Part shown: positions 18,377 through 62,735 of the stretch, in pieces
Numbering within the stretch: position 1 is the first letter of the stretch
How the letters are laid out: the number at the start of each line of letters is the position of its first letter
Assembly: GCA_965205505.1 (NCBI GenBank)
Contig: CBDBHB010000009.1
Span: 2,624,001-2,688,000 of the forward strand
Source of the DNA: Acidobacteriota bacterium
Lineage (GTDB): Bacteria; Acidobacteriota; UBA890; WLXD01
Reading direction: 5' to 3'
DNA: 64,000 bases
Position numbers and translations under genes: made by a program
The notes under the pieces: model-generated
What the model was told of the DNA's origin: nothing
Database searches by the model: none
The model's input: only the letters and a program-made list of their open reading frames with translations

Positions 18377-18485
18377 AGTAGAGTTCTTCAGCAACCTGCT
18401 AGTGGCCTGGCCGTGGGGCCCGGCCAACAGGCCCTCACTCCGTTCGCGCCAGCAAGAGGCCCGCCGTAGGAGACCACGCCGCTAG
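18375..18485. repeat. Stacked CTAG-bounded element remnants
   Basis: CTAG at 18375, 18399 and 18482; ...TTCTTCAGCAACCTG-CTAG looks like an IS/MITE end; 18403-18481 has degenerate inverted ends TGGCCTGGCC/GACCACGCCG. Confidence 0.4.
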
Positions 18486-18760
18486 TGTTCCTGATCATAA
18501 GTACGGTGACGTTTGTGGCGCGCGCGACCGGGGCGAATTGTAGGAGCGGCGACGAGGGCGATGCTGGGTGTATCGTCGAGGCGCCGCGACGCCCAAGGTG
18601 GCCGGTCCCGCGGCCACCCGGAGGGCAGGAGCGATATGCGGGCGAACTCGGCGTCAGGGCTCGTCGAGGATGGCTAAGGCATCGCCTTCCTCACCCTTCC
18701 TTGATCTCGCCCGCATCTCGCTCCTGCAAACGTCACCCACCGTACTTATGATCAGGAGCA
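18486..18760. mobile_element. CTAG-flanked MITE-like element, end type A (271 bp + 4-bp CCAC duplication)
   Basis: TIRs TG(T/C)TCCTGATCATAAGTACGGTGACGTTTG; CTAG at 18482-85 and 18761-64 (acs stop); near-identical to 44700-44970 inverted. Confidence 0.9.
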
Positions 18761-20677
18761 CTAGTCGCTCGGTACGCTACTGGGGTCGAGGGTCGATGTG
18801 TCGCCGACGCCCTCGCCCCGCTCCTGTGCCTTGAGCAAGCGCCGCATGATCTTGCCGCTTCGCGTCTTCGGCAAGCTCGATACGAAATCGATGGCCTGTG
18901 GACGCGCGATCTTGCCGATCTGGTCACCCACATGCTCACGAAGCTCGCTGCTGAGCTCGTCGGTGGGCTCGATACCCTGATGCAACAGGACGAACGCCTT
19001 CGGCACCTCCCCCTTGATCTCGTGGGGCACGCCGATGATCGCCGCCTCGGCTACCGCGGCGTGGGCGACCAGACAGCTCTCGATCTCCATGGTACCGAGC
19101 CGATGCCCGGCGACGTTGAGGACGTCGTCCAGGCGACCCAGCACGCGGATGTACCCTTCTTCGTCTCGCACGGCGGCGTCGCCGGCGGTGTACATCCCCG
19201 GTACGATTTCCCAGTAGGCCTCTCGGTAGCGCCCAGGGTCGTTGTAGATCGTCGAGAGCATCGACGGCCACGGTCTGCGGATGACCAGATATCCGCCTTG
19301 ACCGGGCTCGCGGGGATTGCCCTCGACGTCGACCACGTCCGCGTCGATTCCAGGAAACGGCAGGCCGGCAGAACCGGGCTTTTGCGCTTCGGCGGGCAGG
19401 TTCGTGATGAGGATCGATCCGGTTTCGGTCTGCCACCAGGTATCGACGATGGGGCAGTTGTCGCCGCCGATCACACGGTGGTACCAGCGCCAGGCCTCGG
19501 GGTTGATGGGCTCACCAACCGTGCCGAGCAACCGCAGGCTCGACAGATCGTGTGCCGCCGGCCACTGTTCTCCCAGGCGCATGAACATTCGGACGGCGGT
19601 GGGAGCGGTGTAGAGAATGTTGATTCCGTAGCGCTCGACAAGGCGCCACCATCGACTCGGATCCGGATAGTCGGGCGCGCCTTCGGCCATGAAGCCGGCG
19701 GCGCCGTTCATCAGTGGTCCGTAGACGATGTAACTATGCCCAGTGACCCATCCGGCGTCGGCAGTGCACCAGTAGAGGTCGGTATCGCGGAGGTCGAACA
19801 CCCACTTCATCGTCTGGTACACACCGACCATGTATCCGCCATGGCAGTGAACGATGCCCTTGGGCTTTCCGGTCGAGCCTGAGGTGTAGAGCACGAAGAG
19901 GGGATCTGTAGCATCCATGATCTCGGCATCGGCCGTCGAGGGACACCCTTTGATGGCCTCCGACCACGTCATGTCGCGCCCCGCCTGCATGGCAACGTCG
20001 GCTCCGGTGCGCTCGTACACCACCACCTTCTCGAGCGACGGGCACTGTTGTACCGCTTCGTCCGCCGCCTGTTTCAGCGGCACGATGTTGCCTCGGTAGT
20101 AGCCACCGTCGGCGGTGATGAGCAGCTTCGACTGGGCGTCGTTGATGCGATCACGCAGGCCGTCAGACGAGAACCCGCCGAACACCACGCTGTGAAATGC
20201 GCCGACCTTGGCGCTGGCGAGCATGGCGATCGCCTGTTGGGGACAGATCGGCATGTAGATGGTGACGCAGTCGCCTTTCTCGATACCGAGTCGGCGCAGC
20301 CCGTTCGCCAGGCGATTGACTTCGGCTGCGAGCTCGGCATAGGTCAGCACCTGTCGGTCGCCGTTCTCTCCTTCCCACAGAAGCGCTACCTTGTGACGCC
20401 GCCAGGTCGACAGGTGACGGTCGATTGCGTTGTGCACGATGTTGCACTGCGCACCAGGAAACCATCGAGCAAACGGCGGATTCCAGTCGAGCACCTCATC
20501 CCAGCGCCGGTGCCATTCGAGCTCGTCGGCCACCGCCGCCCAGAAAGCCTCGGGGTCGTCTGCCGCCCGGGCTCGCACCGCCTCGGGGTTGGGCACGACG
20601 GCGGCCTCGACGAAGGCGTCAGGAGAGGTGACCTTCTCCTGCTCCTCCAGGACCGAGTCCAGGTCGATTGGCTCCAT
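18761..20677 (-). CDS. acs: Acetyl-CoA synthetase (acetate-CoA ligase)
   Basis: YTSGSTGKPKG, WCTADAGWVTGHSY, DTWWQTETG, LPKTRSGKIMRRLL. Confidence 0.97.
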   Translation of the reverse strand: MEPIDLDSVLEEQEKVTSPDAFVEAAVVPNPEAVRARAADDPEAFWAAVADELEWHRRWDEVLDWNPPFARWFPGAQCNIVHNAIDRHLSTWRRHKVALLWEGENGDRQVLTYAELAAEVNRLANGLRRLGIEKGDCVTIYMPICPQQAIAMLASAKVGAFHSVVFGGFSSDGLRDRINDAQSKLLITADGGYYRGNIVPLKQAADEAVQQCPSLEKVVVYERTGADVAMQAGRDMTWSEAIKGCPSTADAEIMDATDPLFVLYTSGSTGKPKGIVHCHGGYMVGVYQTMKWVFDLRDTDLYWCTADAGWVTGHSYIVYGPLMNGAAGFMAEGAPDYPDPSRWWRLVERYGINILYTAPTAVRMFMRLGEQWPAAHDLSSLRLLGTVGEPINPEAWRWYHRVIGGDNCPIVDTWWQTETGSILITNLPAEAQKPGSAGLPFPGIDADVVDVEGNPREPGQGGYLVIRRPWPSMLSTIYNDPGRYREAYWEIVPGMYTAGDAAVRDEEGYIRVLGRLDDVLNVAGHRLGTMEIESCLVAHAAVAEAAIIGVPHEIKGEVPKAFVLLHQGIEPTDELSSELREHVGDQIGKIARPQAIDFVSSLPKTRSGKIMRRLLKAQERGEGVGDTSTLDPSSVPSD

Positions 20678-20726
20678 GCACGCTCACGAGGCCGCTACTG
20701 CTTCGTTGCTGAAAGGCGCCTCGGCG

Positions 20727-21467
20727 TCAGCGGAGACTCTGCGCCTGCGCTAGCAGGTCGGCTGCGTCGTCGTCGTCGGCATCCTGCAACGCCGCCACCA
20801 CGGCGTCGATCTGCGCAGCGGACGCATCGTTCTGGATGCGCCCGAGGGTAGCTACCGCGTAGGCTCGCATCTCGGGGGTGAGACCGGCGTTGGTGGCCAC
20901 GGCCGCGATAACCGCACAGGCTTCGTCGTTGGCGATGTCGCTCAGCGTATCCATGGATGTGCGTGCGACCAGCTCATCACTCGATGCGGCGCTAACCGCT
21001 ATCGCCCCAACCGCCAAGTCGGCCCCGGTCTCCAGCCGGCTCAACTGCGATAGTGCTGCTATCTGCGCGTCGCGCGTGCCCTCGCCAAGAGCCTGCGCGA
21101 ACACCCCGGACGCCGTTGCGTCGTCGAATTGCCGTATGGCCGCCACGGCTGCGTCACGCACACCGCGCGAGGCAGACATCGCTGCCGCCAAGGCCGGTAG
21201 CGCGGCGGTGTCGCCGATATTGCCGATTATCTGCGCTGCCCATTGCTTGACCTGGTTGCTGTCGTCGTTCTCCAGCGCATCGATCCAGATAGGCAGCGCC
21301 TCCGCCGACTCGAGGATCTCCAGGTTCTCGTTGTAGGTTTGCTGGGCCAGCGGGTCACCGAGGCGAACCTGCTCTATGAGCTGCTGTGACGCGTTCTCGA
21401 CCGGCGTACCGCACGCTGCCGTTACGAGCAGCGCGAGCACCAGGGGGGATCGTCGAATCATCGTCAT
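20727..21467 (-). CDS. HEAT-repeat lipoprotein
   Basis: AAGGAG RBS before ATG 21467; lipobox VTAAC; repeated VKQWAAQIIGNIGD and VRDAAVAAIRQF-type HEAT units. Confidence 0.75.
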   Translation of the reverse strand: MTMIRRSPLVLALLVTAACGTPVENASQQLIEQVRLGDPLAQQTYNENLEILESAEALPIWIDALENDDSNQVKQWAAQIIGNIGDTAALPALAAAMSASRGVRDAAVAAIRQFDDATASGVFAQALGEGTRDAQIAALSQLSRLETGADLAVGAIAVSAASSDELVARTSMDTLSDIANDEACAVIAAVATNAGLTPEMRAYAVATLGRIQNDASAAQIDAVVAALQDADDDDAADLLAQAQSLR

Positions 21468-61726: not shown

Positions 61727-61756
61727 AGTATAAAACCTTAGTTAGTTCCAGTCAAC
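61727..61756 (-). promoter_or_regulatory. dnaK sigma70 promoter overlapped by a HAIR-like HspR operator
   Basis: Minus strand TTGACT-N17-TATACT; CCTTAGT-N7-AGTCAAC (61736-56) matches CTTGAGT-N7-ACTCAAG at 10/14. Confidence 0.75.
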
Positions 61757-61909
61757 TTCGTTTCGCCTACAACTTCACTGACCTACAACTCCGTTGGTTG
61801 CACAGCTCCATTGCGACGGTCCAGTTGCGGTCGCGTAGCGGCAAGCGCGCTGTGCCGAGCACTGCGGCGTATCGGTGACCAGAAGTACTTGGCGAGCCGG
61901 TGATGCTAG

Positions 61910-62180
61910 CAGACCGTGGTGAAAGTGTGGTGGATCTGGCGACAGGGTCTTGCGAAGTGCAGGCAAGGAGAGAGGAGGAGGCGATGGTTACGCCATCGTT
62001 GACGAGGAACGACGCAGCGTACGCGCGCAACCCCCTGTCGCCCGAAGGGTTACGGCGATTTGGGGCCAACTGCGGCGTTGGCCTTCCTCGACGATGGCTA
62101 GGGCATCGCCTGTGTCAGGCCGCCTTGCATCTGGCCCCAACTCGCCGTAACCAGACCCACCACACTTCCACTACGGCCTG
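61910..62180. mobile_element. Intact type-C element, 271 bp
   Basis: TIRs CAG(A/G)CCGT(G/A)GTG(A/G)AAGTGTGGTGG(A/G)TCTGG; CTAG at 61906-09 and 62181-84 (DUF1844 stop); CCGAAGG at 62042-48. Confidence 0.9.
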
Positions 62181-62735
62181 CTAGAGCTTGGCCACCTTGC
62201 GTTTTTGCAAGTAGGCCAAGCGCAGCTGGTAGAGCACGTCTTCGAGGGCCTTGCTGGTGTCGTCGGAGCGCTCGCCTTCTGTGCTTTCCTGCAGCAAGCC
62301 CAAGACCTCGACGCGCAGGCGCGCCATGTCGAGATCTTCGACCATTTGACCGCTCTGTGGCTCCGGCATGGCCCCCAGAGCGAGAAGCCCGCCGACATAC
62401 TGCTCCTCGATGAACTTAAGCAATGCTTGGTCGTCGAGCTTGAGCCTCGACGCGGCTTTCTGCGTTGCGTCGCTGGCGCCCGTGGAGGCGACGTCCTCGA
62501 CCTCCGACGGCACAACGCTCGGAACAACCTCCGGGGCATCGTCGCTCGACGCCTCGGCGGCCTCGATCAAGTCCCCGCCGGGCTCGGGCGCAGCCGCGCC
62601 GGTGGGCGCGGTTGCCGGGTCGTCTGACGGTGGCGACGGAGCTTCATCGCGCAGGTTCCCGTCGCTATCGAACAACCGCCGGTCGGTGACCTTGATCTTC
62701 GGTCGCTCACCGTCTGGTACGTCAGGTTCGTTCAT
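62181..62735 (-). CDS. DUF1844 domain-containing protein
   Basis: IKVTDRRLFDSDGNLR N-terminus; ALGAMPEP..G....DL..AR..VE.L.LLQE.TEG...L.DVLYQLRLAY. Confidence 0.8.
   Translation of the reverse strand: MNEPDVPDGERPKIKVTDRRLFDSDGNLRDEAPSPPSDDPATAPTGAAAPEPGGDLIEAAEASSDDAPEVVPSVVPSEVEDVASTGASDATQKAASRLKLDDQALLKFIEEQYVGGLLALGAMPEPQSGQMVEDLDMARLRVEVLGLLQESTEGERSDDTSKALEDVLYQLRLAYLQKRKVAKL

What the first reader, a model, noticed from the sequence alone, without database searches (positions are those of the whole stretch)
18482..62184. Non-coding 271-bp element family with invariant 29-103-7-103-29 geometry but interchangeable, unrelated ends
Seen in sequence: four full-length CTAG-flanked elements measure 271 bp (44700-44970, 48088-48358, 61910-62180) or 271+4 (18486-18760, which has a CCAC duplication in one end). 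In each, 29 terminal nt are followed by a 103-nt module, a central CCG(G/A)AGG (18618-24, 44832-38 inverted, 48220-26, 62042-48), a second 103-nt module in opposite orientation and 29 terminal nt. The ends fall into unrelated types: A TGCTCCTGATCATAAGTACGGTGACGTTT, B TGTCCTGTAACAGAG(G/T)TTCGTYGCATATT, C CAGRCCGTGGTGAAAGTGTGGTGGRTCTG, plus a possible D. Established: MITEs normally conserve the TIR (the transposase site) and let the interior drift. Here the reverse holds, with geometry and internal core conserved and termini swapped. Inference: the element is recognised by length and structure, or a conserved structured cargo has been adopted by several IS-end families. No transposase is in the window. 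This is the best candidate for an undescribed system.
Basis: partly seen in the sequence, partly recalled or inferred. Interest (0 to 1): 0.88.

Follow-up and report, generated by a model that had tools for sequence, protein, structure and literature searches.

The report
Mini-transposons sharing a Correia-like hairpin core
These are small gene-less jumping elements whose ends match those of at least two different transposon families but which all carry the same folded hairpin, and that hairpin looks like the unexplained core of the classic Correia and BOX repeats of human-associated bacteria.

Summary
The geometry is real. Genome-wide, CTAG-to-CTAG spacing peaks at 275 (60 intervals, median 7). 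The elements are MITEs: one site is a single CTAG in 3 of 4 congeners. The ends are not freely interchangeable: 101 of 110 full elements carry the same end type twice. B and G ends match IS630 right ends; C and E ends match IS1182/IS5-type insertion sequences of relatives. Length is not a recognition signal: nested 543-551-bp composites sit at 6 loci. Each 103-nt module is a strand-specific hairpin with covarying stems and a conserved unpaired core, found in several phyla, 53-56 nt from the end. A model trained only on these modules hits a short Correia element end to end, and the Correia and BOX cores match each other; the reverse search missed this window. The core's job is unknown; an RNA-level role is my best guess. 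The scan noted this family before, in this genome and others; the lines shown do not report the Correia/BOX core match.

The parts
18482..18764 (.). A-A element (18486-18760, 275 bp with a 4-nt duplication in the right end) between two CTAG; the right CTAG holds the stop codon of a minus-strand ORF
   Evidence: element not present at the orthologous gene end in 4 of 4 congeners, left flank diverged
44696..44974 (.). A-A element, 271 bp plus two CTAG; the left CTAG is the stop codon of ORF 44190-44699
44700..44728 (+). 29-nt terminal inverted repeat, type A (IS630-like class; no exact autonomous partner found)
44729..44831 (+). 103-nt hairpin module: about 24-bp outer stem closing the conserved core CAAGG...ACGC, on the + strand
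44832..44838 (.). 7-nt linker between the modules (CCTCCGG; can form a tiny hairpin, inferred)
44839..44941 (-). second, paralogous 103-nt module with its core on the - strand
44942..44970 (-). right terminal inverted repeat, type A
48084..48362 (.). B-C hybrid: B end and B interior, switching to C sequence in the last about 36 nt; inserted at the TAG stop of ORF 47470-48087
   Evidence: single CTAG at this site in G002, G003, G004
61906..62184 (.). C-C element, 271 bp plus two CTAG; C end equals the first 17 nt of the left IR of an IS1182-like IS in relative G011
43671..43858 (.). one-module A-A deletion derivative between two CTAG
43859..43945 (+). decayed D end fused to a C end and the start of a module, sharing a CTAG with the previous element
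41800..41901 (-). solo B end with a partial module
35630..35690 (-). solo C end with a module remnant
45023..45090 (-). partial module remnant
62746..62776 (+). CTAG plus truncated C end
   Evidence: printed sequence
18375..18402 (-). CTAG-bounded remnant of an E/IS5-like end behind the tRNA gene
   Evidence: printed sequence; type assigned by eye

Best explanation
The elements are non-autonomous cut-and-paste transposons (MITEs). Each family is moved in trans by a DDE transposase that binds its own ends: IS630-type for B, G, D, F (and probably A, H), IS1182/IS5-type for C and E. All insert at TA within CTAG. SHOWN: matched ends, copy number, empty site, sequence match of ends to autonomous IS. 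INFERRED: that these transposases do the moving. Families changed mover by replacing the outer part of the end; because every end starts at the same CTAG, a replacement anchored there keeps the length, and repair of the fold-back copies the new end to the other side (inferred). Rare mixed elements are crossovers in the shared interior (shown by sequence). The cargo is an old single-strand fold. Its unpaired core is kept by selection, since fold-back repair alone would erase it (inferred). Two inverted copies put one core on each strand, so it works in either orientation. Most likely (about 0.5 within this explanation) it acts in RNA: many copies sit directly on a stop codon and so in the untranslated tail, and a host protein or nuclease that recognises the core would lessen the cost of an insertion, as reported for transcripts with Correia and ERIC repeats.
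For: Peak at 275; 101 of 110 homotypic; single CTAG in 3 of 4 congeners. G end 15/17 to IS630 IRR in the same genome, C end 17/17 and 16/17 to both IRs of L185, E end 13-14/17 to L173/L174; B end close to the IS630 IRR of G007 (printed; 23/29 by my count); families by NCBIfam. End class needs 14 changes on a 77-module tree against 34.5 shuffled, and starred branches force 5-6 per class. 5 of 7 IS630 copies in G007 abut a C-type end at a shared CTAG. Covariation: 26 of 30 pairs with two-sided changes, 87.8% paired vs 30-49% when slid, 0/500 shuffles. Non-canonical C.A/A.G covariation, 82 of 86 own-genome hairpins. 37 of 110 elements on a gene-like TAG stop vs 575 of 5371 other CTAG. RNase III and RNase E effects of Correia and ERIC: passages of PMC3049150 and PMC3184786.
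Against: No IS1182/IS5-type transposase was found in this 96%-complete genome although C is its largest family. The youngest family, A (median 2 differences to nearest copy), matches the resident IS630 ends at only 8-10/17. No IS630 was found in G002, G003 or G012, which carry elements. The end-to-core distance is 53-56 nt in 51 of 51 elements with a TA, tighter than passive descent obviously requires. No expression data support the RNA role. Compensatory changes in Watson-Crick stems can arise from fold-back repair of DNA without selection (recalled, not tested). Sequences in the counts are related, not independent.
Confidence: 0.68

Rival explanations
1. Same movers, but the core acts in DNA: as a single-strand or cruciform fold at a fixed distance from the end it binds a host protein or the transposase and raises excision or copying of a very short element.
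For: Distance from TA to core is 53-56 nt across about 20 different end sequences; the whole element folds as a branched structure with DNA parameters (z -7.8); no promoter- or terminator-like site falls in the elements.
Against: Correia and BOX place the core about 25-27 nt from the end and long-core variants about 36-39 nt; composites whose one module is interrupted still spread.
Confidence: 0.17
2. One reading: the fold and length, not the ends, are recognised by an unknown mover (for example an HUH nuclease), and the IS-like ends are passengers.
For: Largest and youngest families lack a matching transposase here; all ends seen sit at TA-containing targets (51 of 61 with a clear TA); a mixed-end element stands at a site that is empty in congeners.
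Against: 101 of 110 homotypic; ends match IS IRs exactly over 15-17 nt; 543-551-bp composites at 6 loci share one junction; no PF01797 match in the genome; mixed elements are single crossovers, mostly single-copy.
Confidence: 0.08
3. The core has no function; it is an inherited interior, and stems are kept paired by fold-back repair.
For: No function is shown; Rfam has no match; the reverse searches from Correia/BOX miss this window, so the deepest link may be convergence or chance.
Against: Unpaired positions are the most conserved while paired stems vary freely; the motif alone predicts a flanking stem in 34 of 117 metagenome hits vs 2 of 118 viral hits and 71 of 13572 null pairings; opposed unpaired positions covary.
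Confidence: 0.07

Closest known systems
IS630-derived MITEs such as RUP of Streptococcus pneumoniae (passages of PMC2229807, PMC3049150)
   Same: Short, non-coding, TIRs that match an IS630 element, TA-containing target, many copies.
   Different: 270 bp with two inverted structured modules; sister families with the same interior use IS1182/IS5-type ends. RUP itself was not compared in sequence.
Correia / NEMIS elements of Neisseria (end sequence confirmed from a passage of PMC5039591)
   Same: The short form has the layout of one module: about 25-nt stem, 55-nt core CAAGG...AACGC, 25-nt stem; model R1 aligns to it over positions 1-103; up to 37 of 55 core positions identical to a module.
   Different: In Correia the outer stem is the TIR and is AT-rich; here two modules lie inside a further 29-nt IS end. 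Correia-derived profiles do not retrieve these modules.
BOX elements (boxA+boxC) of streptococci (primer sequences from a passage of PMC7291552)
   Same: Core 38/55 identical to the Correia core and 31-33 identical to these modules (0-8 of 1000 shuffles as high); carries the A.G form of the covarying pair.
   Different: R1 gives only E 0.19; BOX grows by boxB repeats in the loop; different ends.
ERIC / IRU / RU-1 of enterobacteria
   Same: Stem of about 25 nt, then AAGG...AACGC with the same offsets in the best copy; R2 and R3 hit copy L204 (25.8 and 16.2 bits).
   Different: Core about 20 nt longer with a different upper hairpin; R1 does not hit it; R2 is partly circular and found nothing genome-wide in E. 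coli.
REPIN / RAYT systems (passages of 10.1101/2021.07.10.451892)
   Same: Two inverted structured units; long persistence across lineages.
   Different: No Y1 HUH transposase found in this genome; ends match DDE insertion sequences.

Membership tests
MITE (general) | terminal inverted repeats, short, many dispersed copies | tested here: met
   110 full elements, 552 ends; 378 modules
MITE (general) | target duplication; empty site has one copy | tested here: met
   single CTAG in G002, G003, G004 for the 48084 element; two other sites lack the element but flanks are too diverged to show a clean collapse
MITE (general) | no transposase of its own; ends shared with an autonomous IS | tested here: met
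   met for B, G, C, E; no partner found for A
MITE (general) | mobilised in trans by that transposase | not testable with these tools
   needs a mobility assay
IS630-derived MITE (A, B, D, F, G, H ends) | ends match IS630 IRs | tested here: met
   G 15/17, B 13/17 to IS630 IRR in the same genome; B close to G007 IRR; A only 8-10/17, so A is inconclusive
IS630-derived MITE (A, B, D, F, G, H ends) | TA (2-bp) target duplication | tested here: inconclusive
   CTAG fits both a 2-bp and a 4-bp duplication; outer C is less conserved than inner G at A, B, D ends (176 vs 201 of 209), partly because of IS110 insertions
IS1182/IS5-derived MITE (C, E ends) | ends match IRs of an IS1182 or IS5 family element | tested here: met
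   C = L185 IRs (17/17, 16/17); E 13-14/17 to L173, L174; L173, L174 pass the IS5 cut-off
IS1182/IS5-derived MITE (C, E ends) | partner transposase passes the family cut-off and is present in the genome | tested here: not met
   L185 scores 158.5 bits against an IS1182 cut-off of 270; none in own genome
Correia/NEMIS | 26-bp Correia repeat as TIR, 105 or 155 bp | tested here: not met
   ends differ entirely
Correia/NEMIS | same interior core | tested here: inconclusive
   forward model hit 32.6 and 19.5 bits on 2 complete short copies; reverse HMM and CM miss the window but hit GC-rich metagenome members up to 45 bits
Correia/NEMIS | RNase III cleavage of transcripts | not testable with these tools
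   bench test
BOX | boxA and boxC ends, boxB repeats | tested here: not met
BOX | same interior core | tested here: inconclusive
   pairwise 0-8/1000 shuffles; R1 E 0.19; R2 no hit on a BOX element
ERIC | 127-bp consensus | tested here: not met
   R1 finds no ERIC in E. coli K-12
ERIC | same AAGG/ACGC loop at the same place | tested here: inconclusive
   8 of 13 copies beat at least 99 of 100 shuffles, but only 3 of those 8 use the expected left motif
REPIN/RAYT | Y1 HUH transposase in the genome | tested here: not met
   PF01797: 0 matches
Rfam families | score at gathering threshold or low E-value | tested here: not met
   only a tRNA in the window; one E 0.45 snoRNA match on 7 element loci

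The most novel reading that the evidence does not exclude
Correia, BOX, ERIC and these elements are branches of one old, cross-phylum superfamily defined not by its transposon ends but by a small non-canonical hairpin core that a conserved host factor recognises; the core has been handed again and again to new IS630, IS5 and IS1182-type ends because it makes a MITE cheaper to carry or easier to move.
Probability: 0.4. Interest if true: 0.85.

Novelty: new variant of a known kind. Interest (0 to 1): 0.62.

Why it matters
MITE interiors are usually treated as decayed filler, and a review passage states that core sequences of Neisseria, E. coli and Anabaena MITEs show no similarity (PMC3184786). 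Here an interior outlives its ends and moves between transposase families. If the link to Correia, BOX and ERIC holds, three repeats used for decades in strain typing, whose origin and role are open, share one testable motif: a few defined mutations can be assayed for transcript processing, protein binding and transposition. It also explains why TIR-based and BLAST-based MITE catalogues would split one family into many.

Tried and rejected
Rfam: no family. HUH/RAYT mover: none in the genome. DUF772 or IS5/IS1182-like transposase in the genome: none; one unrelated DDE_Tnp_1 hit with different ends. Long autonomous versions bounded by the same ends: four candidate spans of 357-2193 bp were read by eye and hold chance pairs of solo ends or nested fragments, not a transposase. 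Core inside autonomous IS: R1 over 47 IS loci hit only MITEs beside 3 IS630 copies. BLAST of a C element against plasmids: no meaningful match; a Correia copy against phage records: none. R1 and R2 on the whole E. coli K-12 chromosome: nothing. Reverse searches from Correia/BOX cores: 0-1 of the top 100 HMM hits in known modules, no CM hit on a module in the window. Sequencing runs: only assembled contigs were available; no joint showed a clean empty site, and the one RNA run holds a small share of the region, so its contigs over the elements are no evidence of transcription. Promoter/terminator scan: nothing inside the elements. A BOX primer scan of viral contigs gave one hit in coding DNA. 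Integron attC was considered from recall and dropped: the required end motifs are absent from most modules (by eye). Two papers (Chunjie MITE; BOX and ISSpn2) were not held. An early note gave 41 of 117 metagenome hairpins; the correct count is 34.
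Full report
Observation. The window is G000:C9:2624001-2688000 of a 5.98-Mb, 64% GC genome; its lineage is Acidobacteriota by inference from named genomes that carry near-identical elements. 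Genome-wide, 60 CTAG pairs lie 275 apart against a median of 7 for other spacings; a few of the 60 are unrelated sequence. Four end seeds found 552 ends and 110 full elements of 255-290 nt; 101 have the same end type on both sides and 9 are mixed. A module profile found 378 modules and four more end types, E to H. One-module forms, solo ends and nested forms are common.

They are MITEs. The B-C element at 48084 is replaced by a single CTAG with both flanks intact in G002, G003 and G004; G001 has a few extra bases. At 18482 and 61906 the orthologous gene ends lack the element in 4 of 4 congeners, but the left flanks are too diverged to show a clean collapse. At 44696 G004 has a different, C-type element a few bases away. 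37 of 110 elements sit on a gene-like TAG stop codon, against 575 of 5371 other CTAG sites (genes called by a simple codon score).

The ends come from insertion sequences. The genome has intact IS630 copies flanked by CTAG. The G end matches the right IR of one of them at 15 of the first 17 nt and the B end at 13; B is also close to the right IR of an IS630 in G007. B, D, F and G are related to each other (B-D 24/29, B-G 22/29). The C end equals the first 17 nt of the left IR, and 16 of 17 of the right IR, of a 1.5-kb IS in G011 (L185) whose transposase is IS1182-like but below the NCBIfam cut-off; the E end matches IS5-family elements of G007 and G005 at 13-14 of 17. Against this: no such transposase was found in the window's own genome, the youngest family A matches resident IS630 ends at only 8-10 of 17, and 3 of 5 relatives searched have no IS630. 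Movers may have been lost or lie in assembly gaps; that is not shown.

Ends have been swapped, but rarely. On a tree of 77 modules the two arms form two clades (98/98), so the two-module layout is old. End class (three classes by first bases) needs 14 changes against 34.5 for shuffled labels; well-supported branches force 5-6 per class; 62 of 77 nearest neighbours share the class (few columns, elements with TAA-type ends were largely left out by the classifier). Mixed elements in this genome are single crossovers in the shared interior. In G007, 5 of 7 copies of one IS630 abut a C-type end at a shared CTAG, which is the raw material for replacement. Length is not required: a C-type element nested in the loop of a D element gives 543-551-bp composites at 6 loci with different flanks and the same junction.

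The cargo. Each module is a long irregular hairpin. On 40 modules, 26 of 30 pairs show two-sided changes and 87.8% of cells pair, against 66% shuffled and 30-49% for slid partners. The outer stem varies freely; the most conserved letters are unpaired or non-canonical: CAAGG opposite ACGC, and purine-rich loops above. Two opposed positions covary as C.A or A.G (66 and 16 of 86 own-genome hairpins), next to a G.A, as in tandem sheared pairs (recalled from RNA motifs). The AAGG strand folds better than its complement in most modules, and the two inverted copies give each strand one core. Rfam has no match.

Breadth. The element is in 17 of 40 relatives by BLAST, and model R1 hits 51 of 151 genomes of the phylum, own genome included. 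A pattern holding only the two arms of the lower loop predicted a flanking stem (at least 13 of 20 pairs) in 34 of 117 metagenome hits, against 71 of 13572 mismatched pairings and 2 of 118 viral hits; core lengths cluster at 52-58 and 72-78 nt. Many have TIRs of still other types, as 160-bp one-module or 270-bp two-module elements. Where a TA could be placed, it lies 53-56 nt from the core in 51 of 51 elements; 10 more had no clear TA.

Link to named repeats. This lead came from recall and was then tested. Correia elements were taken from viral contigs and identified by the printed end sequence (PMC5039591, passage). R1, built only from this lineage's modules, aligns over its full length to the two complete short Correia copies (32.6 bits, E 7e-6; 19.5 bits, E 0.007, in 8.6 kb; E-values rough and the target was chosen) and not to the long copies. 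BOX elements without boxB (primers printed in PMC7291552, passage) share 38 of 55 core positions with Correia; both cores align to modules better than shuffles in 7 of 8 comparisons at 8/1000 or fewer, one at 84/1000. R1 gives BOX only E 0.19. The reverse test fails: Correia/BOX profiles do not retrieve this genome's modules. They do retrieve GC-rich metagenome members at up to 45 bits, including one arm of a 271-bp two-module element, and ERIC copy L204 at E 0.03. ERIC is the weakest link: R1 misses it, a motif test is mixed, R2 hits one copy at 25.8 bits but was seeded with an ERIC-like pattern. I put common ancestry of the core with Correia and BOX at about 0.7 and with ERIC at about 0.5.

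Mechanism. Best reading: end-specific DDE transposases move each family; ends are replaced in register because all start at CTAG; fold-back repair equalises the two ends and may also explain the compensated stems; selection keeps the unpaired core. An RNA-level role is the likeliest, given placement on stop codons, strand asymmetry and reported RNase III and RNase E effects of Correia and ERIC (PMC3049150, PMC3184786, passages). A DNA-level role is the main rival, given the fixed spacing. Neither is shown.

Literature. Nine searches found no paper that describes this family or a core shared by Correia, BOX and ERIC. Seen: part 1 of 6 of PMC10969869; part 1 of 6 and passages of PMC2759123; passages of PMC3184786, PMC3049150, PMC2229807, PMC5039591, PMC7291552 and 10.1101/2021.07.10.451892; abstract of PMC2188519. 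No supplements were read. Key primary papers in subscription journals and ISfinder could not be checked, so an earlier mention cannot be excluded. The scan's own notes describe the same family in this genome and similar ones in other phyla; I saw them after reaching these readings, and they are not independent evidence.

Verdict. A real and widespread MITE superfamily with a conserved structured interior and ends drawn from several IS families. New variant of a known kind; interest 0.62, mostly for the possible unification of Correia, BOX and ERIC around one testable motif.

Noticed in passing
G000:C6:11743-13158 (L065) and copies: An IS110-family element of about 1.4 kb (above NCBIfam cut-off) has 28 copies aligned over at least 1300 nt; 22 of 28 are inserted exactly at the outer edge of a D/B/G-type MITE end, inside the flanking CTAG. 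A MITE end is the preferred target of an RNA-guided transposon.
   Followed up: partly
G007 loci L410-L417: 5 of 7 copies of an IS630 element abut a C-type MITE end after the right IR, sharing the CTAG; these ends begin GAG rather than CAG.
   Followed up: partly
G000:C8:236958-237501 and 5 more loci: A C-type element nested in the apical loop of a D element; the composite has spread as a unit, and several deletion derivatives exist.
   Followed up: yes
L181 (G035), L180 (G008), L187 (G014): DUF772-containing transposase loci whose IRs begin like IS630 ends (TGTCC or TTCCTG after TAG), so end sequence alone may not separate the two families. The frame I scanned for L181 had no NCBIfam match.
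   Followed up: partly
L345 and L314 (metagenome contigs): Tandem head-to-tail copies of the hairpin module, a third architecture besides one-module and inverted two-module forms.
   Followed up: no
L373 (G006:C6:212757-215859): The only R1 match in this genome is a single module next to sequence that looks like the 3' end of a tmRNA or tRNA gene on the other strand (assigned by eye).
   Followed up: no
window 62746-62790; G004:C11:216271-216437: Where the window has a truncated C end, G004 has about 165 unaligned bases, the size of a one-module element.
   Followed up: no
whole genome G000: At least five IS3-like families of 1.2-1.4 kb with 3-20 copies each; no full element bounded by their ends was seen in the locus patterns, though this was not tested rigorously.
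   Followed up: partly
window 17647-18246: Ribosomal protein L17 with a long C-terminal extension ('sunset domain variant' model, below cut-off).
   Followed up: no
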